Source: an uncultured archaeon (GTDB lineage Archaea; Nanobdellota; Nanobdellia; Pacearchaeales; GW2011-AR1). Taken from it: a DNA stretch of 64,000 nucleotides. The translations under genes were made by a program, and so were the position numbers. This document shows positions 1 to 12,593 of this stretch, one piece after another. Under the pieces are notes generated by a model that was not told the origin of the DNA, made no database searches, and saw only the letters and a program-made list of their open reading frames with translations. Positions within the stretch are counted from its first letter, which is position 1. Every line of letters starts with the position of its first letter. The DNA lies in contig CABMHR010000001.1 in assembly GCA_902386025.1 (NCBI GenBank), positions 99,741 through 163,740 of the forward strand, given 5' to 3'.

Positions 1-635
1 CCATCTTTTTTTGAAAGTTTATTTTTATTTATAGGAATAATAAATTCTCCTGCACAGTAAGGAAAAAAACTTAATTGATTATGGGGCAATTTAATATTCT
101 TTCCTAACATTCTGTTTTCTAAAAATTTTAATTCATTTGGATCCCCTTTATGCATTATCCCATCTGCATGTTCAAAACAGAACCTTTCTGATTTAATCTC
201 AAACTTTGGAACACCTGCTTTTTTTGCTCTTTCTAAAGTATCATAAGATTGGGATCTTATATCATATGGGAAATAAATAAAAGCTGCTCTCTTGGTTAAA
301 ATTCTAGATATTGCACTTGGCCAGTTAGGAGAAGCTCTGACAAGAACAGCGTATGGCTTTAATCTTAATGATTCAACAACTGCTTTAATTATTGTTTTTA
401 CATTTTTAGTTATAGAGAGAAATATATATTTAAAATTTTTAAAATTCATCTTGAAGAAATTAACATTAAAGTAGATAATTTTGTCAAAAGCGATATTATG
501 AAACTCCTTAGAAACCCCCTTATTTCCTAAAATTTGTATAAGGACTGTTTCATATCCTTTTTTTCTAAGCAGCATCGCCAGTTTGTATATCATAACTGTG
601 GAGTATGGCTCCACAAAAACAATTTGTTTTTTCAT
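1..635 (-). CDS. Putative glycosyltransferase (GT-B-like), partial; 3' end lies beyond window start
   Basis: Hand translation: ATG at 635-633 (minus) opens a stop-free frame to position 1 (MKKQIVFVEPYSTVMIYKLAMLLRKKGYETVLIQ...FEHADGIMHKGDPNE...). It is missing from the ORF track only because no stop falls inside the window. The family call rests on a Rossmann-like N-terminus and locus context. Confidence 0.4.
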   Translation of the reverse strand, partial: MKKQIVFVEPYSTVMIYKLAMLLRKKGYETVLIQILGNKGVSKEFHNIAFDKIIYFNVNFFKMNFKNFKYIFLSITKNVKTIIKAVVESLRLKPYAVLVRASPNWPSAISRILTKRAAFIYFPYDIRSQSYDTLERAKKAGVPKFEIKSERFCFEHADGIMHKGDPNELKFLENRMLGKNIKLPHNQLSFFPYCAGEFIIPINKNKLSKKD

Positions 636-636
636 T

Positions 637-1149
637 TTATTTATCATTTCTTGACTCCTTATTATATTTTATTATTCTGGCGGGGTTTCCACAAACAACA
701 GCATTTTCTGGAACATCTTTATTCACAACACTTCCTGCTCCAATCGTGGCATTTTTACCAATTTTTACTCCCTTAAGGATTATTGCATGTGTTCCTATCC
801 ATACCCCATCATTTATTTCTATGGGAGAGTCTATCATATCTTCTTCTCTTGGTCCCAAGGGCATTTTATGATCATTATCATATATTGAAGCGTGCGGACC
901 AATCCCCACATTTTTACCAATCTTAATTTTTTTGCGTGAACTTATTATTGCCCCCGCTCCAATACTTGTCCAATTCCCTATTTCTAAGTTGTAGGGCCTA
1001 TAAATAAAAATATTTTCATAGATTTTTACACCCTTTCCTATTTTTGCTCCAGCAATTTTATAAAATATCTTTCTAAGATTCTTCCCAATTTCCCCCCCAA
1101 TATTCCTCAGGAGAGATGCTCCTATTTGATAAAAAAAGGTATATATCAT
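637..1149 (-). CDS. Hexapeptide-repeat (left-handed beta-helix) O-acyl/acetyltransferase
   Basis: Repeated [LIV]-G-x4 turns (IGKNVGIGPHASI; IGTHAIILKGVKIGKNATIGAGSVV; C-terminal VVCGNPARI), typical of LacA/NodL/WbbJ-type sugar acetyltransferases. Confidence 0.8.
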   Translation of the reverse strand: MIYTFFYQIGASLLRNIGGEIGKNLRKIFYKIAGAKIGKGVKIYENIFIYRPYNLEIGNWTSIGAGAIISSRKKIKIGKNVGIGPHASIYDNDHKMPLGPREEDMIDSPIEINDGVWIGTHAIILKGVKIGKNATIGAGSVVNKDVPENAVVCGNPARIIKYNKESRNDK

Positions 1150-1150
1150 T

Positions 1151-1375
1151 TTATTTAGAACTAATATTTTTAACTAAATCTCCAAATGTGAAAATATCTT
1201 CAGCATTTTTGATAATTACATTAAAATTTGACTCTACTGCCGCAATAAACTGATAAAACCTCACAGAACTATGACTATTCAAATGTTCATTATCCAAAAT
1301 TAAACCATCACCGATTTCTGATTCTTTCATTCCCCAAAATTCAGAGAAAAATCTTATTAATCTTGCTCTTTCCAT
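1151..1375 (-). CDS. Small carrier-protein-like protein (ACP/PCP fold candidate)
   Basis: 74 aa and acidic. LNSHSSVRFYQFIAAVE resembles the D-S-L-x-helix phosphopantetheine site. Lies next to the FkbH/AcpS module. Confidence 0.5.
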   Translation of the reverse strand: MERARLIRFFSEFWGMKESEIGDGLILDNEHLNSHSSVRFYQFIAAVESNFNVIIKNAEDIFTFGDLVKNISSK

Positions 1376-1543
1376 CTACCATCCCTCATGACAAACAGGG
1401 CAGATATAATCTTCAGTGCCGTCTTCTTTAATTATTTTTGTCAGATAATCACAAATTTTTTCTTCTTTTAATCTTTCTAATGTAACAAGACATTTGCAGC
1501 ATCTAATCTTTTTCCCTGATTTTTTGAGCATATTCCCAAACAT
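1376..1543 (-). CDS. 55-aa zinc-ribbon-like mini-protein (below ORF-track cutoff)
   Basis: Hand translation: MFGNMLKKSGKKIRCCKCLVTLERLKEEKICDYLTKIIKEDGTEDYICPVCHEGW. Its TAG stop (1376-1378) directly abuts the ATG of the carrier protein (1375). Paired Cys motifs CCKC ... CPVC. Confidence 0.45.
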   Translation of the reverse strand: MFGNMLKKSGKKIRCCKCLVTLERLKEEKICDYLTKIIKEDGTEDYICPVCHEGW

Positions 1544-1628
1544 ATAAACATACTTAAAAAACTTCCTATTCTATCCTACATAAATCTTAAAAAACTCCCT
1601 AATTTTATCTTAAATAAGTTTAATTAAA

Positions 1629-3395
1629 ATGGGATTAGGAGAATATTTAAATCAAAGTAAGAAAATAATCCAAAATCCATCTATTAATTCCTGTAAAATA
1701 GCAATTCTCTCAAATTTTACAATCAATGGACTTGGGGAAGTTATGCAAGTTCTCTGCAATAATCAAAAAATTTACGCTGAAGTTTATACCCCTGATTACA
1801 ACCAATACATGCAAGAAATTTTTAATAAATCCAGTCGTCTATATAAATTCTCCCCAAATATAATTTTTTTACTAATCGACACAGAATATATGTTGGGGGG
1901 GGATTTTTACTCTTTCCCTTATAGGCTAACTAATAAAGAGAGAGAAAATAATATTGAAAAAAAATTTCAGGAATTAAAAAGTTTAATAATCTCTTTAGAG
2001 CAGAATACTTCCTGCAAGATAGTTATTAACAATTTTTTATATCCTCTTTATTCAAGCAGGGGTATTTTGGAAAACAAACAGGATTATGGTATTAAAAAAG
2101 CTATTATGGATTTTAATAATCAACTTGAGGATTTAGCAAAAAATGATTCACAATTATTTGTTTTCGATATTAACTCTTTTGTGATGAAAGAGGGATATAA
2201 CTCCATTATGGACAGCAAAATGGACTATCTTGCAGATATGAAATTATCTCCCTCCGCAATTGTCTCTTTAGCTAAAGAATATCTAGCGTATATCTTTCCT
2301 TTAATGTCTATGACAAAAAAGTGTATAATTCTTGATTTAGACAACACTTTATGGGGGGGGATAATCGGAGAAGAAGGAATATCAAATATCAAACTTAGCC
2401 CAGAAAAAGAGGGGAAACCTTTTTATGATTTTCAAAAAAGACTTCTTGAATTATCAGAAAGGGGAATTATTCTAGCCATTAATAGCAGGAATAATTACAA
2501 CGATGCAATAGAAGTGATTAAGAATCACCCTTATATGCTGTTGAGAGAAGATAATTTTGCTTCTATAAAGATAAATTGGGATGATAAAGTAAAAAATATA
2601 AAAGAGATTGCAAATGATTTAAATATCGGGATAGATAGTCTTGTTTTTATAGACGACGATAAAACAAATAGGGAATTTGTAAAAAAAATGCTCCCAGAAG
2701 TTTTCGTTGTAGAATTACCTGAAAGTTCCTGTGATTATGTGAAAACTCTTGAAGCATTAAAAATCTTTAATTCCTTTTCAATAACTAAAGAAGATTTGGA
2801 AAAAAAAGAGATGTATGTTTCCCAGAAGAAAAGAGATGAATTAAAGGCGAAAGTTTCTGATTTGAATTCATTCTTAAATGAATTGAAACTAGAAGGAGAG
2901 ATAATCTCTGTTAATGACTTCAATATTTCAAGAACTTCACAATTGACTCAGAAAACCAACCAATTTAATTTAACAACTAAAAGGTACTCTGAAGGGGATA
3001 TTAATAGTTTTTTAAAAGACGAAAATTATTTGCTTAAATTAATTCGAGTGAAAGATAAATTTGGCGACTATGGAATAACCGGTTTAGCAGTGTTTAAGAA
3101 AATTGATAATTCTATATCAGAACTGGATAACTTTCTTTTAAGCTGTAGAATTCTGGGGAAGAACATAGAATTTGTATTTTTGCAAAAGTTGATTGACGAA
3201 TTGGGAAAAAGAGAAATTAAAAAAATAAAAGCGAGGTTTATCCCAACATCAAAAAATGCACCTGCCGCAAATTTTTTAAGAGAAGCAGGATTTATTTTAG
3301 AAGGAAAATCTGGAGGAGAGGAAAACTATACTTTAGATATAGGGAAAGAAAATAAAAAAAACATTTTTATGGAGATAAAATATGCTGACTCTTAA
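1629..3395 (+). CDS. FkbH-like HAD-IIIC domain protein with C-terminal GNAT-like domain
   Basis: Signature LDLDNTLWGG (HAD subfamily IIIC / FkbH) plus VFIDDD. The C-terminal region (GDYGITGL...LSCRILGKNIE) is acyltransferase-like. Overlaps the downstream ACP by 14 nt. Confidence 0.8.
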   Translation: MGLGEYLNQSKKIIQNPSINSCKIAILSNFTINGLGEVMQVLCNNQKIYAEVYTPDYNQYMQEIFNKSSRLYKFSPNIIFLLIDTEYMLGGDFYSFPYRLTNKERENNIEKKFQELKSLIISLEQNTSCKIVINNFLYPLYSSRGILENKQDYGIKKAIMDFNNQLEDLAKNDSQLFVFDINSFVMKEGYNSIMDSKMDYLADMKLSPSAIVSLAKEYLAYIFPLMSMTKKCIILDLDNTLWGGIIGEEGISNIKLSPEKEGKPFYDFQKRLLELSERGIILAINSRNNYNDAIEVIKNHPYMLLREDNFASIKINWDDKVKNIKEIANDLNIGIDSLVFIDDDKTNREFVKKMLPEVFVVELPESSCDYVKTLEALKIFNSFSITKEDLEKKEMYVSQKKRDELKAKVSDLNSFLNELKLEGEIISVNDFNISRTSQLTQKTNQFNLTTKRYSEGDINSFLKDENYLLKLIRVKDKFGDYGITGLAVFKKIDNSISELDNFLLSCRILGKNIEFVFLQKLIDELGKREIKKIKARFIPTSKNAPAANFLREAGFILEGKSGGEENYTLDIGKENKKNIFMEIKYADS

Positions 3396-3624
3396 GGAAC
3401 TTGTTGCTAAAGTTTTAGATATTGATAAAAGAATAATTAATAATGAATCCTCTCCAGAAAATATTCCCTCTTGGGATTCTTTTAATGGGTTGATGATAGT
3501 TTCGGAACTTGAAACTAATTTTAATGTAAAATTTACCTTAGAAGAAGTAGTCGCCGTAAGAAATTTTAAAGACATAAAAGAAGCCTTGGAAAGACATGGG
3601 ATTAAAGAAGGATTAAATGATTAA
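3382..3624 (+). CDS. Acyl carrier protein
   Basis: 80 aa. WDSFNGLMIVSELETNF matches the DS(L/F) phosphopantetheinylation motif followed by helix II. Confidence 0.65.
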   Translation: MLTLKELVAKVLDIDKRIINNESSPENIPSWDSFNGLMIVSELETNFNVKFTLEEVVAVRNFKDIKEALERHGIKEGLND

Positions 3625-3665
3625 TTATCCTGGCTTATTAATTCAAAAATGGAGAGTAAAATTTA

Positions 3666-4088
3666 ATGGAGCTTAATGATTACAAATATGAAGAAATAAA
3701 TGTTGGAGACATTTTTGAATTTAAAAGAAACATCACGGCAGATAATCTAAACGAATACGCTAAATTAACGGGGGATTTTAATCCATTACATTGTGATGAG
3801 GAATATGCAAAAAAAACTATTTTTAAAGGAAGGATTATCCATGGCATGCTTGCAGGTAGTCTGTTTTCAACTCTTGTTGGGATGATGTGTCCAGGCAAAA
3901 GAAATCTTTATTTAAGTCAAAGTTTAAATTTCAAAAGGCATATATACCCCAATTCAGAATTAACTGTTAAGGGAGTTATAAAAAATAAGATAGATAGTAT
4001 GAAGATAATCGTGTTGGGCACCGAAATATTAGTTGATGGAAAAATAGTAATAAATGGTGAAGCGAAAGTTAAAGTTTTAGGAGATTAA
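3666..4088 (+). CDS. MaoC-like (R)-specific enoyl hydratase/dehydratase (hot-dog fold)
   Basis: DFNPLHCDEEYAKKTIFKGRIIHGM matches the MaoC hydratase motif (D-x-N-P-x-H ... H-G). Confidence 0.8.
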   Translation: MELNDYKYEEINVGDIFEFKRNITADNLNEYAKLTGDFNPLHCDEEYAKKTIFKGRIIHGMLAGSLFSTLVGMMCPGKRNLYLSQSLNFKRHIYPNSELTVKGVIKNKIDSMKIIVLGTEILVDGKIVINGEAKVKVLGD

Positions 4089-4821
4089 AATCAAAAAAAA
4101 AGTTGCATTAATAATTGGGGGATCAGGGGGGATTGGTATAGAGGTAGCTAAATTAATGTCTAAAAAAGGTATGGCTGTATGTTTAACTTGTTTTAAAGAT
4201 TTAGATAAAACAAAAGAGATAGTTCAAAGTGAAAGACTGGATAATGTAAAATTGTATAGTTTAGATTTAACTGATGAAAACAGCATTAACAATATGATTT
4301 CACTAGTATTAAACGAAAATGAAAGTTTAGATTCGGTTATCTATTGCGTTTCAAAACCAGTGATAAATAAGGGGGTAAAAGAATTGGAATGGAGTGATTT
4401 TCAAGATCATATTAATATTCAAATTAAAGGATTCTTTGATATTATTAAATTGTTGTATCCTTTAATTAATAGGGGGGACAAAATAAAATTTATAGCATTA
4501 ATAACACAATATTGTACAGGTAAACCTCCTGTAAAATTGGCTCATTATATCACTGCTAAGTATGGTTTAATGGGTTTGATGAAATGTATGGCTTCAGAAT
4601 TAGCTAAAACTCGATGTACATTTAATATGGTATCTCCGGGCATGGTTAAAACAAGATTATTATCAAACCTCCCACCAAAGTTTTTAGAAATGGCCGATTC
4701 TGAAAAAAGGTTATCAGACTCTAAGGATGTTGCAAAAATTATCTACTTCTTATCGTCTGAGGATTCTGATAATCTTAATGGGGTAAATATTTTAATAAAT
4801 AATGGTGAAATATTTACTTAA
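4084..4821 (+). CDS. Short-chain dehydrogenase/reductase (FabG-like); probable non-AUG start upstream of the track ATG (4156)
   Basis: YITAK (YxxxK) lies in the tracked ORF. The Rossmann motif KVALIIGGSGGIGIEVA is encoded in frame at 4099-4149, upstream of the first ATG. The frame is open from 4081 (stop TAG at 4078-4080) with no ATG/GTG/TTG. ATT at 4084-4086 overlaps the MaoC stop TAA (4086-4088). Confidence 0.7.
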   Translation: MKIKKKVALIIGGSGGIGIEVAKLMSKKGMAVCLTCFKDLDKTKEIVQSERLDNVKLYSLDLTDENSINNMISLVLNENESLDSVIYCVSKPVINKGVKELEWSDFQDHINIQIKGFFDIIKLLYPLINRGDKIKFIALITQYCTGKPPVKLAHYITAKYGLMGLMKCMASELAKTRCTFNMVSPGMVKTRLLSNLPPKFLEMADSEKRLSDSKDVAKIIYFLSSEDSDNLNGVNILINNGEIFT

Positions 4822-5437
4822 ATCCGTTTTCTAATTCATCTTTAACCCTATTCAAAAATTGAAGTGCTTTTTGACAATCTGCTACTCTGCTATCATATGA
4901 AAGGGTTAAATTAAATCTTTTTATAAAAAGAATTTCTGTGTCTTTACTTTCGAAATCTTCAAATTCCGAAGAAATAGAAATCATTGCGGATTGATTTTCA
5001 TAAATGGGAGGAATAATAGAATAAACTCCAAAAGAAAAGAGATTTGTTATAGAAAAACTACCATTTTGCTTCTCAGAATCTGATAATTCTCCATGAAGAT
5101 ATTTAAGAGCCATTTCCTTTATTTCTTTTGATAATTCTATCAAAGATTTTTGATCAGCATGTTTAATATTTATTATTTCTGAACCCCTCCCAATATTAAT
5201 AAAATATCCCAAATCAATTGAGGGATAGAGCATTATTCCATTATCAAATTTTGAATTAAGTTCTGGAAAATTTTTTAAATTTTTGCAAATAGAATAAATG
5301 ATAATGTCTCCGGGACTTAGATTATACTTCTCTTCGCTTTTAATCTTTTCTATTAAAGAATGGATATTCTTGCTTTTAATTTGAACCGTAAGTGTACTTG
5401 TTGGTCCAAATGATTTAAAAGATTCTTTATCTTCCAT
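4814..5437 (-). CDS. 2-oxoacid dehydrogenase E2 / CAT-fold acyltransferase catalytic-domain homologue (variant active site)
   Basis: FSITNLFSFGVYSIIPPIYENQSAMISI and LTLSYDSRVADCQKALQFLNRVKDELENG align by eye to the E2 motifs TISNlG...PIIn.Pq.AILg and LSyDHRviDGa.A..FL..lk..LE.P. DHR is DSR here. Confidence 0.6.
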   Translation of the reverse strand: MEDKESFKSFGPTSTLTVQIKSKNIHSLIEKIKSEEKYNLSPGDIIIYSICKNLKNFPELNSKFDNGIMLYPSIDLGYFINIGRGSEIINIKHADQKSLIELSKEIKEMALKYLHGELSDSEKQNGSFSITNLFSFGVYSIIPPIYENQSAMISISSEFEDFESKDTEILFIKRFNLTLSYDSRVADCQKALQFLNRVKDELENGFK

Positions 5438-5771
5438 TTTTATCTATGATTACATATGCAACTGCATATTCCCCTGAATGAGCGATGCTGCAATGTATAC
5501 TTTTGTTTAATTTGCCTTTAATATATACCTCGGGTATGCCTTTTTGATTATTTATTATCTCTATCTCCTTAAAAAAAATCTTTTTACCAAAAGCTTTTAT
5601 TACTGATTCTTTTGCACAAAATTTTCCAGCATAACTTATTATGGGTTCTTTCTTTTTCTCGCAATAATCTCTTTCTCTTTCTGTAAAGATTAATTCAAAA
5701 AAGCGTTTGTTTGCAAACTTTTTCTTAAAACGTGTTATTAGTTCAATATCCGCCCCAATTCCCGATATCAT
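5427..5771 (-). CDS. acpS: Holo-ACP synthase (4'-phosphopantetheinyl transferase, AcpS type)
   Basis: 114 aa. GIGADIELITRF ... FTERERDYC ... YAGKFCAKESVIKAFG match the AcpS family layout. Confidence 0.8.
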   Translation of the reverse strand: MISGIGADIELITRFKKKFANKRFFELIFTERERDYCEKKKEPIISYAGKFCAKESVIKAFGKKIFFKEIEIINNQKGIPEVYIKGKLNKSIHCSIAHSGEYAVAYVIIDKNGR

Positions 5772-5858
5772 TGTTTGGATTAAAATTGTTTAAAGATTTT
5801 TAAACTTTGCCTAGAACAATTAGAGATTTAAATGATTTAGATTTTTTTAATATAAAAG

Positions 5859-5887: not shown

Positions 5888-7507
5888 ATGGAAATTTTAT
5901 TGATAATGCCCAAATATTTCTGTTCAAGCAAAGACACAAAGCCCAATTATGATTACCTCTTTCCGATTGGGCTTCCTTATATTTATTCTGTGATAAAATC
6001 TCACGGCTATAATATTGAAGCATATAATCTAAATCATGAAGAAGGTAAAATAAGTGAATTAATAAAGAAAAAATTAGATAATAAAAAATATGATTTAGTC
6101 TGCACTGGGGGGATGGCAATAGATTATTCCGTAATAGAAAAAATAATAAATACTTGCAAATCTCATAAAAGCAACCCTAAAGTGATTTTAGGTGGCCCAG
6201 TCCTAACGAGCAATAGGGAAGTTATATCAGAAAATCTTAATTTTGATATAGGGGTAATAGGGGAAGGAGAAGTAACCATAATAGAAATCTTGAACCATCT
6301 GAAGAATGATAAGAACATGGGAGACATAGATGGGATTTGTTATAAGGATAAAGATAAAAAAATAATCTTTACTCCTTCCAGAAAACAAATAGAGGATTTA
6401 GATTCCATCCCTTTCCCCGATTATGAAGCATTTGGATATGAAAAACTTCTAGGCAATACAGACCCTTTATTAACTTGTTTTGGATTGTTGGATTACCCCC
6501 GAGTTTATCCTCTTTTGGGAAGCAGAGGATGTCCATTTCAATGCACTTTTTGTCATCATTCGATTGGCTCCAAATATAGAAAAAGATCAATAAAAAATAT
6601 CACAGAGGAGATGGAATTTGCTATCAAAAAATATGATATAAATTTTTTTAATTTAAATGATGATTTATTCTCTGTTGATAAAAGTAGGCTTTATGAATTT
6701 TGCGATGAGATGCAAAGATTAGAAAAAAAATATTCAAAAAAGCTATTTTGGTGGTGTTCATTATGGGTGGGGGCAATCGATGAAAAAATGCTGAATACTC
6801 TCAAAGAATCTGGATGCCTTTATGTTTCATTTGGTTTTGAAAGTTATAGCAAGACTGTTCTTAAAAGTATGAAAAAACCTATCACTCCCGAACAGATAGA
6901 CGCTGCCATAAAATTGTGCATGAAAACAAAAATGCCGATAGTTGGAAATTTTATATTTGGAGACATTGCTGAAACCAAAGAAACTGCAAGAGAGACATTG
7001 GACTATTGGAAGAAAAATTGTAGGGGGCAAGTAAAATTATTTTTTATACACCCTTACCCTGGGAGCGAGATTTATAAAAGCTGTTTAGACAGAGGGATAA
7101 TAAAAGATGAATTAAATTTCATAAAAAATGAGATGCATCACACTTATATTAGGAATATGACTCTTAATATGGAAGATAGAGATTTTGAAGAATTAAAAAA
7201 AGAGATATATCATTTAACAAAAACAGATATCCCTTACAAAGTTCCATTTAAGATTAAGCATGTCGGAAAAGAAAAATATGAATTATCTTTAAAATGTCAT
7301 TTTTGCAAAGAGAAAATAACTCTTAAAAATTGCATTATTAAGAATAAAGGATATTTCAGTTCATTTTTAATATGTAGAAATTGCCAAATGAAATATAATG
7401 TATGCAGTAAATTATATAAATTTACTATGGACCATTATTTAAAATTGGATTTTTTCAGGAAGAATTATCTAATTCTTAGGGATAAGTTTTTGAGCAAGAG
7501 GCTTTAA
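5888..7507 (+). CDS. B12-binding-domain radical SAM enzyme (class B)
   Basis: N-terminal Rossmann-like cobalamin-domain pattern (LLIMPKY...GLPYIYSVIKSHGYNIEAYNL...LVCTGG) and GSRGCPFQCTFCHH (CX3CX2C). Confidence 0.8.
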   Translation: MEILLIMPKYFCSSKDTKPNYDYLFPIGLPYIYSVIKSHGYNIEAYNLNHEEGKISELIKKKLDNKKYDLVCTGGMAIDYSVIEKIINTCKSHKSNPKVILGGPVLTSNREVISENLNFDIGVIGEGEVTIIEILNHLKNDKNMGDIDGICYKDKDKKIIFTPSRKQIEDLDSIPFPDYEAFGYEKLLGNTDPLLTCFGLLDYPRVYPLLGSRGCPFQCTFCHHSIGSKYRKRSIKNITEEMEFAIKKYDINFFNLNDDLFSVDKSRLYEFCDEMQRLEKKYSKKLFWWCSLWVGAIDEKMLNTLKESGCLYVSFGFESYSKTVLKSMKKPITPEQIDAAIKLCMKTKMPIVGNFIFGDIAETKETARETLDYWKKNCRGQVKLFFIHPYPGSEIYKSCLDRGIIKDELNFIKNEMHHTYIRNMTLNMEDRDFEELKKEIYHLTKTDIPYKVPFKIKHVGKEKYELSLKCHFCKEKITLKNCIIKNKGYFSSFLICRNCQMKYNVCSKLYKFTMDHYLKLDFFRKNYLILRDKFLSKRL

Positions 7508-8345: not shown

Positions 8346-8810
8346 TTAATTATCTTTTACGGTCCAAACATCTCCAAAATAAAAAGGGTCTCTCCTTTGA
8401 GTAGCTTTCTCTTGAGGGTTATATTCCTTATCAATCAAATGAAGAATAACTGCCTCTTTATTCGCTAAAGGAGTGTATCCATGCCATATCTTTGGAGAAG
8501 TCTTAACAAGTATTGGATTTCTCTCTCCAATTATAAAAGTCTTAACTTCTTTTGTTCCATCTTCTTTTTCTTTTATAGACACGTACTTAATATTCCCTTT
8601 TATACAGGTGGTGCATTCTGTTTGAGTTTCATTAAGATATAATCCTTTTATTATTCCCGGATATAAAACTGAAACAAGGGCTTGTCCAACATTTCCATTA
8701 AAAATATTATTATCTTTCCTTATCGAGATTAAATATCCTTGATCATTTGCAAAAGTGTCTAATTTTTTTACGTTTTCTTCTGCAGATTTGTCTGTATTTG
8801 AATCTTCCAT
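8346..8810 (-). CDS. RmlC-like cupin (dTDP-4-dehydrorhamnose 3,5-epimerase-related / sugar ketoisomerase)
   Basis: GIIKGLYL ... KIWHGYTPLANKEAVILHLIDKEYNPQ ... RRDPF follows the RmlC pattern (RGLH ... HGF ... Y.p..e ... dp). The first motif is degenerate. Confidence 0.5.
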   Translation of the reverse strand: MEDSNTDKSAEENVKKLDTFANDQGYLISIRKDNNIFNGNVGQALVSVLYPGIIKGLYLNETQTECTTCIKGNIKYVSIKEKEDGTKEVKTFIIGERNPILVKTSPKIWHGYTPLANKEAVILHLIDKEYNPQEKATQRRDPFYFGDVWTVKDN

Positions 8811-8957
8811 AATTTCAATTCAGGAATGTTCTTTAAATAAATTATTGATTTAGAATATATAACCCTAACCAATCCCCAATAAAAATTTTTTAGAAAGGAA
8901 AAGATTCTTGAATAATATTCAAAGCGTAGTTAAAATCTATACATCCTATTAATAACA

Positions 8958-8967
8958 TTTTTAAATA
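8958..8967 (+). promoter_or_regulatory. TATA-box-like element (TTTTTAAATA) about 25 nt upstream of the ATG at 8987
   Basis: Same position relative to the ATG as the other candidate boxes; suggests a leaderless or short-leader transcript. Confidence 0.35.
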
Positions 8968-8986
8968 AAGTTTAGCACCATTTTTA

Positions 8987-9973
8987 ATGGTAAGAACAAC
9001 TTCTTGGATTGATGTTTATCCCATAAACGAATCTGGTTTAGTCAGATATAATAAATTAGAAATTGTTAATTCTGGGGCAAGAGTTCAATTAAGCAAAGAA
9101 CTTTCTGATTATTGCACTGAGCAGTGGACTCCTAAAGCAGCAAAAGGCTGGAAAAGTTCTTGGTTGGCATTTGCTGAAAATCTTAAGTATTCATCTGACG
9201 GAGAACAGACTTATGTGACTATTAAACTAGGAGCAATGCCTTTCTTTATTTGTGATGGGATTGTTAAATCAATTGAAGAACAGAAAGATTTTGCTCCCAA
9301 ACAGGGATATGCCAATAGTGTGTCTATTGGTTTTCCAACTGCAACAAAAGATGGGAAAATAATGCTTCAGAGAAGAGCTCCAGATGTTCATTGTCCTAAT
9401 ATACTAATTCATGAACCTTGTGGTTATATGGCTTCAATGAATTTTGCTCCCAGAGCAGAATGTGACTTGGGAAAATATGCAGAGGATAGCAGATTGTTTG
9501 ATTTGGTGGGGCAACTGGATTATAGAAAAGAAGAAATAGCAAAAACCTTTAGCATTCCTTCTGAATTAGTTTCTTACGAACTAAGACAGGACTTTCTTGC
9601 AGCGGGATGGATAACCAAGGAAATGTATTTTTCAACAACAGGAAGAATTGATGTTAATTCAATAGAATTGAAAATTCCAGAGAATCAGGAAATATTCTTT
9701 GTTCCATTTGAACATTTGAAAGATTTAATCTACAATCAAGGAAAACTTTCTCAAATAAATGCAAATGGCTATCGTCCTTTAGATGCAAGAGAAATCCCAT
9801 TAATTGATGAAACGCTAATTGGGCTTGTTTGGGGATATGAAAAATTAACCGGAGAGAAATTGGATGTTGAAGACACAATTGCAAGATTAAACCACGACGG
9901 AATGAACATTAAAGTTTATCCTGCTTCTTCAGATGGTTTGAGTAATGAATATCAGTTTCCAACTAGGTTTTAA
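8987..9973 (+). CDS. Hypothetical protein (328 aa, no family recognised)
   Basis: Long clean ORF with its own TATA-like box. Amino-acid usage is richer in W/C/Q/A and poorer in K than its neighbours (by eye). Confidence 0.5.
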   Translation: MVRTTSWIDVYPINESGLVRYNKLEIVNSGARVQLSKELSDYCTEQWTPKAAKGWKSSWLAFAENLKYSSDGEQTYVTIKLGAMPFFICDGIVKSIEEQKDFAPKQGYANSVSIGFPTATKDGKIMLQRRAPDVHCPNILIHEPCGYMASMNFAPRAECDLGKYAEDSRLFDLVGQLDYRKEEIAKTFSIPSELVSYELRQDFLAAGWITKEMYFSTTGRIDVNSIELKIPENQEIFFVPFEHLKDLIYNQGKLSQINANGYRPLDAREIPLIDETLIGLVWGYEKLTGEKLDVEDTIARLNHDGMNIKVYPASSDGLSNEYQFPTRF

Positions 9974-9980
9974 TTAAATT

Positions 9981-12593
9981 TTAATATCTTATGTTAGTTG
10001 TCTGAGTTATCTTATTAAACACTTCTTCACCATTCTCCTTTCCCAATCTATCTATCACACAATCATGATATCTTGCCATTGATAACATCTTGCTTGTTTC
10101 AGAATTAAAATCTGTTTCTAATGCTGCCATTAGCCACTTTCTGTCAATTGGGTTTTCAGTCAAATAATTTTTTCCTTCATTTAATAGAGCTTTCATCCAC
10201 CTTTCATCAATTTCTCCCTTAACATACAATGTCCCGAATTTACAGATATTTCTTAATTTTTTCTCTATTTCTTCTGGAAATCGCAATCCCCCAATCCCCG
10301 TATTTGTGTCCCCAGAACAACTATCATTAATTGTAAATCCTCTTTCTCTCGCTATTTTGTCTATATGAGTATGGGGGTAAATTTGAAGAGGATAGAGGGA
10401 AATAATACTCCCCTTGCCAATTCTTTTCATTCCTTCTAATGTATCTAATGCATCTTCAACAGGATCGGATATTGGAAGTCCTACGATTGCCTGCAGATTA
10501 ACCCTATAGCCAAATGAAACCAGTCGGTCATACGCTTTTTTTATTTGTTCTTCATTATCCCATTGTCTGTTAAACATTTTCAATGATTCTGGACGAATTG
10601 CTTGAACTCCCAGCCCAACACAATTCACGATACCTCTTAATTTCTTTAATATCACGTCTGATGCTTTCAAAACACTGACAGAAGTTGTTGAGACATACAT
10701 TGGAAGATTTATCTCTTTTTTCCAAGCATCAATAAATTCAGAGAGCCATTCTTCTGCATTTCTTCCAGCAAATAAATCATCATCCACCCACTCAATGTCA
10801 TCTGTAGGATACTTTTTTATTACCTTTGCTTCTTCTATAACGGTTTTAATATCTCTTCTTCCTAAGAAATAATTTATCTGTGCTTCATTTCCAAACAATT
10901 CTCTTCTGTGCAGACTTGAAGAACTGCAATAAGTGCAGGCATATGGGCAACCTAACATAGAGAGAATAATCTTTCTGTAGCGGTATCCCATTCTTGGGAT
11001 ATCTTCATAACATTTTTCTCTTGCAGGCATAGGCAAATCATTTGGATTTCCAGGAATTGTTGTGATTATTCCTCTCTCACCTCCGAGGAATCTTTCAACA
11101 GAACCATTTACCGGGCCTCTGACAACAACATCAATATTTGGCAATTCTGAAATCTCTGGAGAAGCAGTTGCATGATGCCCCCCAAAAACCGAAATTACCT
11201 GGGGATTTTTTTCCTTAATCTTATTTAAAATATCATATGCCTGTGGGAAAAAAGTAGTCATTGGGGAAAACAAAACATAATTTGGACACCATTCCAGAAT
11301 ATGTTCAATTACTTTATCATCTCCTTCTGCATCAAAGAATTTTATTTCTTGATTTAATCTCTGCAACTCTCCTCCAACAAAATACAGCCCGTATGATTCT
11401 TCATTACCAAAACATATCAGTGCATGCTTCATTTTCTCCTCTCTCTTTTGGTAGAGATTTTTCTGTTTATAAAATTCTTTTATTTTTTCACAGATATATT
11501 TAACATCTTTTTTGTTAACTGCAGGATTAATTGGCAAATAAAGATATTTTTCATGAATATAATCCATATTTGGGCAGGAGCATTTAAATTTTTTAAATAC
11601 TTCAAATAAATCATTACGCAATTGCACCATATTCACATCAATGCCATTATTCAAAAGAAATTCTGCTAATTCATCCCTATATTCTGATAAAATTCCAAAT
11701 AACCAATAAGAACCGCCTGCTATTGGAATTACTTCTTTTGGTAGTTCTTTTAGATATTCTAATGCTAAAGATTTTCTATATTCAATAATCAAATCTAAAT
11801 GGGGAAGTGATGCTAATCCAAAGCAAGCATCAATGTCTGTGGGTTGGTATTTATAGCCTGCTTCTTCAATATCAAAAGTCATTTCCCTGCGTTCCCAAGC
11901 CTGATAATTTTTTCTGGCTTTCAGCTCTCTATCAATGCCAAACCATCTTAACAATTTAGCTCTATCGTATTCTTCTTTATTTTTTAAAACTAATATCCCC
12001 CCATCTCCAGTGGTTATATGTTTGATTGCTTGAAGAGAATAACAAATATAATCCCCCTCCAAATTTTTTGGTGCATGGTGTTGCGAAGCATCAACAATAA
12101 CGGGGATATTCTTTTCCCTAGCTAATTTAAATATTTCTGGGTTTGCTTCTATTCCTCCCAAATGAACAACGACAATTGCTTTTGTATTTTCAGTTATTTT
12201 TTTTCTTACATCAATTGGGTCAATATTCAAAGTGTCTCTTTCTATATCTGCAAAAACAATTTTTACATTACGCCTCATAAGACCCATTTGTCCTGCAGTG
12301 CAGTCTAAAACAGGAACTATAACTTCATCATCTTTTTTAAGATTCAATAAATGATATGCTAGTTCAAGTGCAGAAGTCCCTGAATTCAGGAATAAAACAT
12401 GCTTATAACCAAATTTTTTGCCAAATTCTTTTTCAAATTTATCTACTTTCGGCCCTTGACCGAGCCATCTTCCTTCAAGTGTCTCTTCTATTTCTTTTAA
12501 TATTTCTTGTTTTGGAACAAATGGCCAAAAAAGAGGAATCTTTAATTTTTTTGTATCTTGAAAGATTTCCTTTAAAGTTTTATCCTCATCCAT
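9981..12593 (-). CDS. Fusion protein: DegT/DnrJ/EryC1-type PLP sugar aminotransferase/dehydratase (N) + B12-binding radical SAM domain (C)
   Basis: N-terminal half: GQGPKVDKFEKEF..., SGTSALELA, YSLQAIKHITTGDGG (PLP-Lys motif). C-terminal half starts near ...EEKMKHALICFGNEESYG with a cobalamin-domain pattern and LGCPYACTYCSSS (CX3CX2C). One uninterrupted 870-aa frame. Confidence 0.75.
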   Translation of the reverse strand: MDEDKTLKEIFQDTKKLKIPLFWPFVPKQEILKEIEETLEGRWLGQGPKVDKFEKEFGKKFGYKHVLFLNSGTSALELAYHLLNLKKDDEVIVPVLDCTAGQMGLMRRNVKIVFADIERDTLNIDPIDVRKKITENTKAIVVVHLGGIEANPEIFKLAREKNIPVIVDASQHHAPKNLEGDYICYSLQAIKHITTGDGGILVLKNKEEYDRAKLLRWFGIDRELKARKNYQAWERREMTFDIEEAGYKYQPTDIDACFGLASLPHLDLIIEYRKSLALEYLKELPKEVIPIAGGSYWLFGILSEYRDELAEFLLNNGIDVNMVQLRNDLFEVFKKFKCSCPNMDYIHEKYLYLPINPAVNKKDVKYICEKIKEFYKQKNLYQKREEKMKHALICFGNEESYGLYFVGGELQRLNQEIKFFDAEGDDKVIEHILEWCPNYVLFSPMTTFFPQAYDILNKIKEKNPQVISVFGGHHATASPEISELPNIDVVVRGPVNGSVERFLGGERGIITTIPGNPNDLPMPAREKCYEDIPRMGYRYRKIILSMLGCPYACTYCSSSSLHRRELFGNEAQINYFLGRRDIKTVIEEAKVIKKYPTDDIEWVDDDLFAGRNAEEWLSEFIDAWKKEINLPMYVSTTSVSVLKASDVILKKLRGIVNCVGLGVQAIRPESLKMFNRQWDNEEQIKKAYDRLVSFGYRVNLQAIVGLPISDPVEDALDTLEGMKRIGKGSIISLYPLQIYPHTHIDKIARERGFTINDSCSGDTNTGIGGLRFPEEIEKKLRNICKFGTLYVKGEIDERWMKALLNEGKNYLTENPIDRKWLMAALETDFNSETSKMLSMARYHDCVIDRLGKENGEEVFNKITQTTNIRY

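What the first reader, a model, noticed from the sequence alone, without database searches (positions are those of the whole stretch)
637..5771. Bacterial-type carrier-protein pathway (FkbH, two ACPs, MaoC, SDR, E2-like acyltransferase, AcpS) inside an archaeal glycan locus
Eight or nine adjacent genes form a self-contained ACP-dependent module. They are an FkbH-like HAD-IIIC loader (DLDNTLWGG) fused to a GNAT-like domain, two small carrier proteins, a hot-dog dehydratase, a FabG-like reductase, a CAT/E2-fold acyltransferase, a dedicated AcpS, and a hexapeptide acetyltransferase. Archaea are generally regarded as lacking ACP and AcpS, so this looks horizontally acquired. Inference from FkbH chemistry (glyceryl-S-ACP from a glycolytic intermediate) and the locus context: the module probably builds a short hydroxy-acyl or glyceroyl unit that decorates a sugar of the surface or N-glycan.
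Basis: partly seen in the sequence, partly recalled or inferred. Interest (0 to 1): 0.6.

Follow-up and report, generated by a model that had tools for sequence, protein, structure and literature searches.

The report
Archaeal carrier-protein cassette for sugar acylation
A tiny-genome archaeon carries an intact, laterally acquired nine-gene cassette with its own acyl carrier proteins and activating enzyme. The cassette most likely builds a three-carbon hydroxy-acid and attaches it to a surface sugar, yet the host seems unable to make the two metabolites the cassette needs.

Summary
They are an LbH acyltransferase, two carrier proteins with the attachment Ser, a zinc-ribbon ORF, FkbH, MaoC, an SDR, an E2-fold protein and AcpS. 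The same nine genes recur in at least four other DPANN-type contigs. The FkbH-ACP core occurs in more than 580 species genomes, mostly bacterial, usually in glycan loci.

None of 16 congeners has the cassette. Its nearest relatives are other DPANN archaea, not bacteria. An AcpS gene accompanies it mainly in archaea and CPR bacteria.

My reading, which is untested, is: glyceryl-ACP, then MaoC and SDR, then lactyl- or glyceroyl-ACP, then transfer to a sugar.

Three points are new here:
- The E2-like protein lacks the catalytic His and has an invariant Cys instead. It always follows AcpS, and in relatives it is fused to AcpS or to a B12 radical-SAM enzyme.
- The SDR has no ATG, GTG or TTG start.
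- PGK is missing from the whole genus, GAPDH from 16 of its 17 genomes, and CoaB from this genome, so the supply of 1,3-bisphosphoglycerate and CoA is unexplained.

The scan has already noted FkbH-ACP glycan cassettes in about 31 other genomes. I found no paper describing them in archaea.

The parts
1..647 (-). 5' part of a 420-aa gene of unknown family. The whole gene is G000:C1:99125-100387. It is the last visible gene of the Zn-ACP1-LbH operon.
   Evidence: No Pfam, NCBIfam or PDB match. The homologue follows the LbH gene in L107, where it carries a weak Gtf3_C hit. Congener G015 has an orthologue at 59.5% aa identity.
637..1149 (-). Left-handed beta-helix (hexapeptide) acyltransferase, the proposed transferase to the sugar.
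   Evidence: Hexapep 3.7e-15; WcaF-family 1.7e-30. The closest solved relatives are maltose and galactoside O-acetyltransferases at 5e-23. It lies next to FkbH or ACP1 in 25 of 88 loci.
1151..1375 (-). ACP1, a second, divergent carrier protein. The predicted phosphopantetheine site is Ser37 (motif HSS).
   Evidence: NCBIfam ACP 8.7e-5. The model has pLDDT 78.6 and its PDB fold hits are almost all ACPs, at weak E-values. Ser37 aligns with ACP2 Ser33. Homologues occur in L102, L107, L135 and L136.
1376..1543 (-). 55-aa zinc-ribbon protein (CxxC...CxxC). Its stop abuts the ACP1 start.
   Evidence: Conserved in L102, L107, L135 and as an uncalled ORF in L136, always upstream of ACP1.
1629..3395 (+). 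FkbH-like loader with three regions: FkbH_N, a HAD-IIIC phosphatase domain (DLDNTLWGG, D236/D238) and a C-terminal transferase domain with invariant Cys506 (LLSCR).
   Evidence: TIGR01686 4e-84, 282.5 bits against a cut-off of 146.65. Invariant residues are listed. The only solved relative is 3slr, the uncharacterised B. fragilis BF1531.
3382..3624 (+). ACP2, the carrier protein coupled to FkbH. The attachment site is Ser33 in the WDS motif.
   Evidence: PP-binding 7.4e-4. W31 is conserved in 81 of 81 homologues, D32 in 76 of 81 and S33 in 80 of 81. A homologue lies immediately downstream of FkbH in 76 of 88 loci.
3666..4088 (+). MaoC-type hot-dog (R)-hydratase/dehydratase.
   Evidence: MaoC_dehydratas 3.7e-19. 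Present in 27 of 88 FkbH loci, and fused to the SDR in six bacterial loci.
4090..4821 (+). FabG-like SDR reductase. The start is probably non-canonical: ATC at 4090, or ATT at 4084. The first ATG, at 4156, lies after the GGSGGIG Rossmann motif.
   Evidence: adh_short_C2 7.9e-28. The frame is open from 4081, after a TAG. The relatives' ATG aligns with the window's ATC at 4090.
4814..5437 (-). E2*, a stand-alone E2-fold protein with DSRVADC in place of DHRxxDG. The catalytic His is lost and an invariant Cys188 is gained.
   Evidence: 2-oxoacid_dh 3.4e-34. Model pLDDT 85.5, with TM 0.85-0.89 to E2 cores. Relatives are fused to AcpS or to a B12 radical-SAM enzyme.
5427..5771 (-). AcpS-type 4'-phosphopantetheinyl transferase. 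It overlaps the E2* start by 11 nt.
   Evidence: PF01648 62.2 bits; TIGR00516 65.2 bits against 59.8. It is the only PPTase hit in the genome. GIGADIE and AKESVIKA motifs are present.
5888..7507 (+). B12-binding radical-SAM enzyme, transcribed divergently from AcpS. A conserved neighbour and possible partner of E2*.
   Evidence: B12-binding plus Radical_SAM domains. A homologue sits between E2* and MaoC in L107 and is fused to E2* in P0198. Congener G015 has an orthologue at 79%.
8346..12593 (-). Likely source of the acceptor sugar: an FdtA/WxcM-like protein (8346-8810) and a DegT aminotransferase fused to a B12 radical-SAM domain (9981-12593). An orphan 328-aa gene lies between them on the + strand.
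   Evidence: FdtA 8.8e-5. It is 83% identical in DNA to congener G004.

Best explanation
The region is an intact copy of a mobile, ACP-dependent acyl-decoration cassette that belongs to glycan loci. Nothing in the pathway below has been tested biochemically.

Proposed pathway:
1. AcpS converts the two apo carrier proteins to the holo form, using CoA.
2. The FkbH-like enzyme takes a phosphoglyceryl unit (1,3-bisphosphoglycerate in characterised relatives). It removes the phosphate with its HAD domain and passes glyceryl, through Cys506, to holo-ACP2 (Ser33).
3. MaoC dehydrates glyceryl-S-ACP to the enol of pyruvoyl-S-ACP, and the SDR reduces it to lactyl-S-ACP. Relatives that have methyltransferases instead of MaoC and SDR would make O-methyl-glyceroyl.
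4. The hexapeptide acyltransferase puts the C3 hydroxy-acyl group on a sugar made by the neighbouring FdtA-like and DegT enzymes. Its nearest solved relatives suggest an O-linkage, though an N-linkage is possible.

A sub-module found only in the close DPANN relatives (five contigs, window included) consists of ACP1, the zinc-ribbon protein and the His-less, Cys-bearing E2-fold protein. It probably shuttles or presents the carrier-bound acyl group, acting either as a thiol transacylase or as an adaptor, possibly towards the B12 radical-SAM enzyme.

The cassette entered this lineage by lateral exchange among DPANN archaea.

What is shown: gene identities, conserved residues, cassette conservation, distribution and phylogeny. 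What is inferred: substrate, product, acceptor and the role of E2*.
For: - Family assignments and thresholds.
- Catalytic and attachment residues are conserved. FkbH keeps D236, D238 and C506. ACP2 keeps WDS in 80 of 81 homologues. ACP1 Ser37 is in register and the protein has an ACP fold.
- The same nine genes occur in L102 (G355, another family of the class), L135 and L136. L107 has the same set with a B12 radical-SAM gene in the SDR's place.
- The FkbH-ACP pair is present in 76 of 88 loci. MaoC is present in 27 and the SDR in 17, and MaoC and SDR are fused in six.
- The setting is a glycan locus here and in relatives: flippase, GT2, epimerases, FdtA-like, DegT and AglB.
- AcpS accompanies the cassette in at least 13 of 17 archaeal loci and 5 of 5 CPR loci, but in only 2 of 65 other bacterial loci. 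This fits hosts that have no housekeeping PPTase.
- The FkbH and AcpS trees give the same groupings, and the window falls in a DPANN clade with 100 and 98 SH-aLRT support.
- No congener has the cassette, while the flanks are 70-83% identical in DNA.
- Precedents: N-glyceroyl and di-O-methylglyceroyl sugars exist, and in 2017 their genes were reported as unidentified (PMC5378307, PMC3068675). C. jejuni carries the FkbH gene cj1302 in its flagellin glycosylation locus (PMC7099621). FkbH loading modules are described as converting 1,3-bisphosphoglycerate to D-lactyl-ACP (PMC7901079).
Against: - No biochemical data exist for any glycan-locus FkbH cassette.
- The genus lacks PGK (0 of 17 genomes) and nearly lacks GAPDH (1 of 17). 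The genome also lacks CoaB, so neither 1,3-bisphosphoglycerate nor CoA has an evident endogenous source.
- The SDR has no ATG, GTG or TTG start.
- E2* lacks the catalytic His of its family.
- The LbH enzyme's nearest solved relatives use acetyl-CoA, not acyl-ACP.
- Both ACPs score below the curated HMM cut-offs.
Confidence: 0.6

Rival explanations
1. The cassette is a recent arrival that is non-functional or only partly functional in this host. The genes are intact, but the pathway cannot run because the host makes neither 1,3-bisphosphoglycerate nor CoA, and the reductase has lost its start codon.
For: PGK is found in 0 of 17 genomes of the genus and GAPDH in 1 of 17. No CoaB was found in G000. 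Other DPANN genomes that carry FkbH do have PGK, and in G423 it lies next to the FkbH-like gene. The SDR has ATC where relatives have ATG. The cassette is absent from 16 congeners.
Against: All nine ORFs are uninterrupted and every invariant residue of the families is kept. Start-stop coupling between the genes is preserved. ATC or ATT could act as a start by reinitiation one nucleotide after the MaoC stop. Symbiotic DPANN archaea generally rely on host metabolites (general knowledge).
Confidence: 0.15
2. The loader uses a substrate other than a glycolytic phosphoglycerate, so the product is a different small acyl group. The carrier-protein logic would be the same.
For: The genus lacks the enzymes that form 1,3-bisphosphoglycerate but has enolase. 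No glycan-locus FkbH has been characterised, and the only solved relative, 3slr, is annotated as uncharacterised. In L137 the AcpS-E2* pair works with an AMP-binding loader in place of FkbH.
Against: The protein scores well above the curated cut-off of the FkbH model, and the HAD and Cys motifs are invariant. In G423, PGK lies next to an FkbH-like gene. Glyceroyl sugars are known (PMC5378307).
Confidence: 0.15
3. The module makes a non-glycan product, such as a tetronate-like or polyketide-like metabolite, a lipid head group or a cofactor. On this reading its position in the glycan locus is incidental.
For: FkbH, ACP and an E2-like acyltransferase together form the core of the tetronate 'glycerate utilisation operon' (PMC7489565). 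B12 radical-SAM genes lie nearby.
Against: No ketosynthase or FabH-like gene, FkbI, FkbK or FkbG homologue, or hydrolase of the Agg5 type was found in 1-12.6 kb. The cassette sits among flippases, glycosyltransferases and sugar-nucleotide enzymes in unrelated taxa. It is paired with sugar-type LbH or MBOAT acyltransferases.
Confidence: 0.08
4. Assembly or binning artefact: a bacterial fragment joined to an archaeal contig.
For: The families are typical of bacteria. GC is slightly lower in the cassette than in the window as a whole (0.294 against 0.326).
Against: Both flanks, and the genes beyond them, match same-genus genomes at 70-83% DNA identity. The closest relatives of all three cassette genes searched (FkbH, AcpS, E2*) lie on DPANN contigs, one of them 705 kb long. 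The same contig carries the archaeal ribosomal operon.
Confidence: 0.02

Closest known systems
FkbH / OzmB-type glyceryl-ACP loaders of methoxymalonyl-ACP and tetronate pathways
   Same: The HAD-IIIC plus FkbH domain scores above the curated cut-off, the Cys is conserved, and a dedicated ACP is encoded immediately downstream. The published chemistry is 1,3-bisphosphoglycerate to glyceryl-ACP (PMC7489565).
   Different: There is no PKS, FabH-like, FkbI, FkbK or FkbG partner. The cassette sits in a glycan locus of an archaeon. The host lacks PGK and GAPDH.
DH-KR-FkbH-ACP loading modules of trans-AT polyketide synthases, which give a D-lactyl starter (bryostatin, FR901464 and lankacidin type; recalled from memory, plus PMC7901079)
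   Same: The same four activities are present: a hot-dog dehydratase, an SDR reductase, FkbH and an ACP. MaoC and SDR are even fused in six bacterial cassettes.
   Different: Here they are discrete small proteins. The dehydratase is MaoC-type, not a PKS DH domain. The product would go to a sugar, not to a ketosynthase.
Campylobacter jejuni NCTC 11168 flagellin glycosylation locus (FkbH gene cj1302; 5-N-(2,3-di-O-methylglyceroyl)-pseudaminic acid)
   Same: An FkbH-domain gene lies inside a glycan locus of an organism whose sugar carries a glycerate-derived acyl group (PMC7099621, PMC3068675). G-tracts also occur in its glycan genes.
   Different: In the papers I read, the link between cj1302 and the glyceroyl group is not shown. 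That locus is not reported to contain an E2-fold protein or an AcpS. It is bacterial.
E3-binding protein (protein X) of eukaryotic pyruvate dehydrogenase, a His-less E2 paralogue, and QncL-type E2 enzymes that acylate an ACP (the latter recalled from memory and from scan leads)
   Same: E2* has the E2 catalytic-domain fold (TM 0.85-0.89). E3BP (6h60) is among both the sequence and the fold matches. Like E3BP, E2* lacks the catalytic His. Like QncL, it is wired to a carrier protein.
   Different: E2* has no lipoyl or subunit-binding domain and no E1 partner. It has an invariant Cys in place of the DG glycine. It always follows AcpS, and in relatives it is fused to AcpS or to a B12 radical-SAM enzyme.
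Dlt-type pathway (carrier protein plus MBOAT) for esterifying envelope polymers
   Same: In the Woesearchaeota relative L018, an MBOAT gene sits beside FkbH, ACP and AcpS. That implies a carrier-protein-fed acylation of a surface polymer.
   Different: The window has no MBOAT. It has a cytoplasmic LbH acyltransferase instead, and its loader is FkbH rather than an adenylating enzyme.

Membership tests
FkbH-family glyceryl-ACP loader (TIGR01686) | Score above the curated cut-off of the FkbH domain model | tested here: met
   282.5 bits against a cut-off of 146.65. FkbH_N scores 44 bits against 27.
FkbH-family glyceryl-ACP loader (TIGR01686) | HAD motif I (DxDxT) and a conserved Cys in the C-terminal domain | tested here: met
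   DLDNTLW with D236 and D238, and C506 in LLSCR, are invariant in 12 homologues of 45-72% identity. That the Cys carries the glyceryl group is recalled from the OzmB literature and was not checked here.
FkbH-family glyceryl-ACP loader (TIGR01686) | A dedicated ACP with a modifiable Ser encoded alongside | tested here: met
   An ACP2 homologue is present in 76 of 88 loci. The Ser of the WDS motif is conserved in 80 of 81.
FkbH-family glyceryl-ACP loader (TIGR01686) | Uses 1,3-bisphosphoglycerate | tested here: inconclusive
   This cannot be assayed with these tools. The host genus lacks PGK (0 of 17) and nearly lacks GAPDH (1 of 17). Other DPANN genomes with FkbH have PGK, and in G423 it lies next to the FkbH-like gene.
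AcpS-type phosphopantetheinyl transferase | Single ACPS domain of about 120 aa scoring above the curated cut-offs | tested here: met
   114 aa. PF01648 scores 62.2 bits against 25; TIGR00516 scores 65.2 against 59.8.
AcpS-type phosphopantetheinyl transferase | Mg/CoA-binding Asp near the N-terminus and a Glu/Lys pair in the KEA motif | tested here: met
   GIGADIE (D8) and FCAKESVIKAFG (E55, K59) can be read directly in the translation. The roles of these residues are recalled from the B. subtilis AcpS literature.
Acyl carrier protein (PP-binding) | HMM score above threshold | tested here: not met
   ACP2 scores 20.2 bits against a cut-off of 20.8. ACP1 has no Pfam hit. NCBIfam hits are far below their cut-offs, and a PF00550 scan of the genome finds nothing.
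Acyl carrier protein (PP-binding) | Four-helix fold with a Ser at the start of helix 2 | tested here: met
   The ACP1 model matches ACP structures at TM 0.60-0.67, with weak Foldseek E-values (best 0.059). ACP2 Ser33 and ACP1 Ser37 align with each other and are conserved.
2-oxoacid dehydrogenase E2 acyltransferase | Catalytic-domain fold | tested here: met
   PF00198 scores 118.8 bits. The model gives TM 0.85-0.89 to E2 cores.
2-oxoacid dehydrogenase E2 acyltransferase | Catalytic His in DHRxxDG | tested here: not met
   DSRVADC aligns to the DHRxxDG of 3mae and 1c4t. Across about 20 subfamily clusters the His position is S, A, T, V, P or L, while the Cys is invariant.
2-oxoacid dehydrogenase E2 acyltransferase | N-terminal lipoyl and subunit-binding domains; E1 and E3 partners | tested here: not met
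   The protein is 207 aa and stand-alone. No E1 or E3 genes lie nearby. The next-best library hits, at about 360 aa, do carry lipoyl domains and DHR.
Tetronate 'glycerate utilisation operon' (FkbH, ACP, FabH-like, Agg4-like, Agg5-like) | A FabH-like ketosynthase and an Agg5-type eliminating enzyme | tested here: not met
   No thiolase/FabH or hydrolase family appears among the ORFs of 1-12.6 kb. The definition of the operon is from PMC7489565.
Methoxymalonyl-ACP pathway (FkbG/H/I/J/K) | FkbI acyl-CoA dehydrogenase, FkbK 3-hydroxyacyl-CoA dehydrogenase and FkbG O-methyltransferase | tested here: not met
   None of these families was found in the cassette. MaoC and an SDR are present instead.

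The most novel reading that the evidence does not exclude
Three linked claims make up the most novel reading.
- E2* is a new class of carrier-protein enzyme derived from the E2 core. It would use the invariant Cys188 instead of the lost His to move acyl groups between phosphopantetheine arms (ACP2 to ACP1 or CoA), or to hold them for a B12 radical-SAM methylase.
- FkbH-ACP cassettes in general are the missing genes for N- or O-glyceroyl and lactyl sugar decorations in both bacteria and archaea.
- In this host the pathway runs entirely on 1,3-bisphosphoglycerate and CoA taken from a partner cell.
Probability: 0.2. Interest if true: 0.75.

Novelty: new variant of a known kind. Interest (0 to 1): 0.55.

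Why it matters
Archaea are usually described as doing without ACP and AcpS, apart from a few cases of transfer from bacteria (PMC3533463). Here a private ACP system sits in the envelope-glycan locus of a 0.56-Mb archaeon. The same cassette family turns up in Nanoarchaeota, Nitrososphaerota, Asgard archaea, Micrarchaeota, a methanogen, CPR bacteria and many other bacteria. That points to a widespread, unstudied way of decorating surface sugars.

Glyceroyl-modified sugars are known in pathogens and commensals, and in 2017 their genes were reported as unidentified (PMC5378307). These cassettes are a concrete candidate that can be tested in vitro.

The His-less, Cys-bearing E2-fold protein tied to AcpS is a candidate new enzyme or adaptor family. 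A host that lacks PGK, GAPDH and CoaB but keeps a pathway needing their products would be a clear example of metabolic dependence in DPANN symbionts.

Tried and rejected
- **Rescuing the SDR start by a homopolymer error.** Changing the A9 run (4093-4101) by plus or minus one base gives no ATG, GTG or TTG in any frame (read). I rejected this. The ATC at 4090 aligns with the ATG of relatives.
- **Contamination or chimera.** Rejected, because the flanks match congeners and the cassette's relatives are DPANN.
- **Simple insertion with an empty site.** In congener G015 the 420-aa gene and the radical-SAM gene are adjacent with no cassette. Their relative orientation differs from the window's, so this is not a clean insertion scar.
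- **Membership in the tetronate or methoxymalonyl pathways.** Rejected, because partner genes are missing.
- **Searches that returned nothing.**
  - Pfam, NCBIfam and PDB searches of the 420-aa gene.
  - Pfam and NCBIfam searches of the 298-aa and 328-aa neighbours.
  - A PF00550 scan of the whole genome. The ACPs are too divergent for that route.
  - A literature search for FkbH in archaea, which gave only incidental co-mentions.
- **Paper not available.** PMC2888422 (oxazolomycin) is not held. The role I give to the FkbH Cys therefore rests on memory.
- **Not attempted.** dN/dS on the cassette, because synonymous sites are saturated at 72% aa identity.

Full report
**1. Is it there?**

| Coordinates | Gene | Evidence |
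|---|---|---|
| 637-1149(-) | Hexapeptide (LbH) acyltransferase | Hexapep 3.7e-15 |
| 1151-1375(-) | 74-aa carrier protein, ACP1 | Weak ACP hit, 8.7e-5 |
| 1376-1543(-) | 55-aa zinc-ribbon ORF | CxxC...CxxC |
| 1629-3395(+) | FkbH | TIGR01686 282.5 bits, cut-off 146.65 |
| 3382-3624(+) | 80-aa ACP, ACP2 | PP-binding 20.2 bits, cut-off 20.8 |
| 3666-4088(+) | MaoC | 3.7e-19 |
| 4156-4821(+) | SDR | 7.9e-28 |
| 4814-5437(-) | E2 catalytic-domain protein | 3.4e-34 |
| 5427-5771(-) | AcpS | PF01648 62.2 bits; TIGR00516 65.2, cut-off 59.8 |

The host is an archaeon. The same contig carries S4e, an STT3/AglB homologue, SecY and an archaeal ribosomal-protein operon. The genome has 558,684 bases in four contigs and is 86% complete, so it is DPANN-like. 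This AcpS is the only PPTase-family hit in the genome.

**2. Are the parts competent?**

- *FkbH.* It keeps the HAD motif DLDNTLWGG (D236, D238) and an invariant Cys506 (LLSCR) across homologues of 45-72% identity.
- *ACP2.* Among 81 homologues found next to FkbH genes, W31 is conserved in all 81, D32 in 76 and S33 in 80. S33 is the attachment Ser.
- *ACP1.* It is a divergent paralogue. Its HSS motif aligns in register, so Ser37 corresponds to Ser33. Its model (pLDDT 78.6) matches almost exclusively solved ACPs, at TM 0.60-0.67 and weak Foldseek E-values (best 0.059).
- *AcpS.* It shows GIGADIE and AKESVIKA.

Two parts are irregular.

- *The SDR.* Its Rossmann motif GGSGGIG lies upstream of the first ATG. 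The frame opens at 4081 after a TAG and contains no ATG, GTG or TTG. In relatives, an ATG sits exactly where the window has ATC at 4090, one base after the MaoC stop.
- *The E2-like protein.* It reads DSRVADC where E2 enzymes read DHRxxDG.

**3. The E2-fold protein (E2*) is a distinct subfamily.**

- A word-based search found only 11 relatives, all with His replaced and Gly changed to Cys.
- An exhaustive profile search of 1.84 billion representatives found about 20 clusters at E <= 1e-30, followed by ordinary E2s.
- Across the subfamily the His position is S, A, T, V, P or L, while the Cys is invariant (xDC[QKLN]). The next hits, about 360 aa with lipoyl domains, have DHRVxDG.
- The fold is E2: model pLDDT 85.5, TM 0.85-0.89.
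- Three relatives are fusions. P0198 joins E2* to B12-binding and Radical_SAM domains. P0204 and P0206 join AcpS to E2*.
- In every context I read, E2* directly follows AcpS (window, L102, L107, L135, L136, L137). In L137 the partner loader is an AMP-binding enzyme with its own 84-aa carrier protein, not FkbH.

E2* is therefore tied to the carrier-protein machinery and is not a canonical acyltransferase. E3BP of eukaryotic PDH is a known His-less E2 paralogue, and it appears among the matches.

**4. The cassette is conserved.**

- The nine genes recur in G355 (another family of the class; L102) and in contigs L135 and L136. They share the AcpS-E2* / SDR-MaoC-ACP2-FkbH / Zn-ACP1-LbH architecture.
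- L107 has the same set with a B12 radical-SAM gene in the SDR's place.
- G410, in the same family as the window's genome, has AcpS, SDR, MaoC, ACP2, FkbH and LbH. It lacks E2*, ACP1 and the zinc ribbon together. Those three therefore co-vary.
- A scan of one genome per species found at least 586 loci with a full-length FkbH relative.
- In 88 loci analysed by phmmer on all ORFs, an ACP2 homologue is present in 76, MaoC in 27, the SDR in 17 and an LbH gene in 25. MaoC and SDR are fused in six.
- Contexts are glycan loci. In Nitrosotalea the order is LbH-FkbH-ACP-MaoC-AcpS among glycosyltransferases and a DegT gene. In a Woesearchaeota contig it is MBOAT-x-FkbH-ACP-methyltransferase-AcpS-methyltransferase among sugar-nucleotide genes.
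- In the window the neighbours are a flippase, an epimerase, an RfaE-II-like nucleotidyltransferase, GT2, an FdtA-like protein and a DegT-radical-SAM fusion.

**5. Distribution and origin.**

- FkbH was found in none of 16 congeners, and in 8-10 of 401 genomes sampled from the class. AcpS was found in 19 of 401.
- A DNA search of congeners matches window 3-637 and everything from 5850 onward at 70-83% identity. It matches nothing in 640-5850.
- In G015 the orthologues of the two flanking genes are adjacent, though in a different relative orientation.
- In the FkbH tree the window sits in a DPANN clade with 100 SH-aLRT support. Its neighbours are a Nitrososphaerota clade, a small bacterial clade, CPR bacteria and Micrarchaeota. 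Archaea fall in at least three places among bacteria.
- The AcpS tree is short and weakly resolved, but it repeats the same pairings. The nearest named AcpS is from Pacearchaeota at 60%, followed by a drop to about 43% for Atribacteria.

So the cassette moves as a unit. The immediate donors were other DPANN archaea, not bacteria.

AcpS accompanies the cassette in at least 13 of 17 distinct archaeal loci and in 5 of 5 CPR loci. It does so in only 2 of 65 other bacterial loci. This fits a PPTase that is carried along where no housekeeping one exists. There are two caveats: some loci are truncated, and Sfp-type PPTases were not sought.

**6. Mechanism.**

Shown: gene identities, conserved residues and gene linkage.

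Inferred:
1. FkbH loads glyceryl on ACP2. The chemistry is that of characterised FkbH enzymes (PMC7489565).
2. MaoC removes the 3-OH, giving enol-pyruvoyl/pyruvoyl-ACP. The SDR reduces it to lactyl-ACP. This matches the DH-KR-FkbH-ACP logic summarised as '1,3-bpg + ACP -> D-lactate-ACP' (PMC7901079). I recall it from memory for the bryostatin, FR901464 and lankacidin loaders.
3. The LbH enzyme transfers the acyl group to a sugar. Its nearest solved relatives are maltose and galactoside O-acetyltransferases. An ester linkage is therefore at least as likely as the amide suggested by the FdtA/DegT neighbours.

The roles of ACP1, the zinc ribbon and E2* are open. I favour a thiol transacylase or adaptor between phosphopantetheine arms, possibly serving the B12 radical-SAM enzyme (fusion P0198; adjacency in L107).

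**7. A problem.**

- The genome has enolase, but no PGK, GAPDH or CoaB.
- PGK is found in 0 of 17 genomes of the genus and GAPDH in 1 of 17. These are lineage traits, not assembly gaps.
- Four of five other DPANN genomes that carry FkbH have PGK. In G423 it lies next to the FkbH-like gene.

Three explanations are possible. Both donor metabolites could come from a partner cell. The loader could use something else. Or this copy could be idle. Together with the missing SDR start, this keeps the 'not fully functional here' rival alive.

**8. Comparison with what is known.**

- ACP and AcpS in a few archaea, acquired by transfer from bacteria, have been described (PMC3533463).
- FkbH in archaea has not been described in the library I searched.
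- Glyceroyl sugars are known. T. forsythia makes Pse5Am7Gra, and C. jejuni makes di-O-methylglyceroyl-Pse. In 2017 the genes were stated to be unidentified (PMC5378307, PMC3068675). C. jejuni has the FkbH gene cj1302 in its flagellin glycosylation locus (PMC7099621).
- The cassette fails the membership tests for the tetronate and methoxymalonyl pathways.
- The scan's notebook holds 32 earlier notes, from at least 31 genomes, on FkbH-ACP glycan cassettes with the same reading. None mentions the E2* sub-module.

**9. Verdict.**

This is a new variant of a known kind of system. Its features are moderately surprising: a private ACP system in a DPANN glycan locus, the E2* subfamily, and a host that lacks the pathway's substrates. 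Interest 0.55.

Noticed in passing
window 1092-37252: Runs of seven or more G (or C) occur at 12 sites, all within 1-37.3 kb (the glycan block) and none in 37.3-64 kb. Shuffles give a mean of 1.9 against 15 overlapping matches observed. Two G8 runs lie in FkbH (1895-1902, 2353-2360) and one C7 run lies in the LbH gene. The WGG codons of the HAD motif form G7 in four relatives and G4-G5 in five.
   Followed up: partly
window 4081-4160: The SDR has no canonical start. ATC at 4090 aligns with the ATG of relatives, one base after the MaoC stop TAA (4086-4088), and GGAG lies at 4080-4083. An A9 run lies at 4093-4101.
   Followed up: yes
whole genome G000 and its genus: PGK is absent from all 17 genomes of the genus and GAPDH from 16 of 17. 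CoaB was not found in G000. Enolase is present (C2:186189-186959).
   Followed up: partly
G423:C19:951-2939: A short (357-aa) FkbH-like gene lies directly beside a PGK gene in another DPANN genome. PGK makes FkbH's known substrate.
   Followed up: no
L137:438-3294: The AcpS-E2* pair sits next to an AMP-binding (adenylating) enzyme and an 84-aa carrier protein with an LDS motif. So E2* also works with a loader other than FkbH.
   Followed up: no
L018:6389-12743: A Woesearchaeota relative shows MBOAT, a 331-aa unknown gene, FkbH, ACP, a methyltransferase, a glyoxalase-like gene, AcpS and a second methyltransferase. This looks like a Dlt-like, carrier-fed membrane acylation, probably with O-methylated glyceroyl.
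   Followed up: no
window 9981-12593: The DegT aminotransferase fused to a B12 radical-SAM domain (870 aa) is conserved at 83% DNA identity in congener G004 and 82% in G007. It is therefore a stable feature of the genus, unlike the cassette.
   Followed up: partly
window 8987-9973: A 328-aa ORF has no Pfam or NCBIfam match. Congener G007 has a homologue at 74% DNA identity.
   Followed up: partly
L027 and L028: FkbH and AcpS from a bin labelled Acidiferrobacteraceae (L027) group with strong support among thaumarchaeal sequences. FkbH groups with a Marine Group I genome (L028, 100 SH-aLRT) and AcpS with Nitrosotalea (L020, 98). This is either a recent transfer or a mis-binned contig.
   Followed up: no
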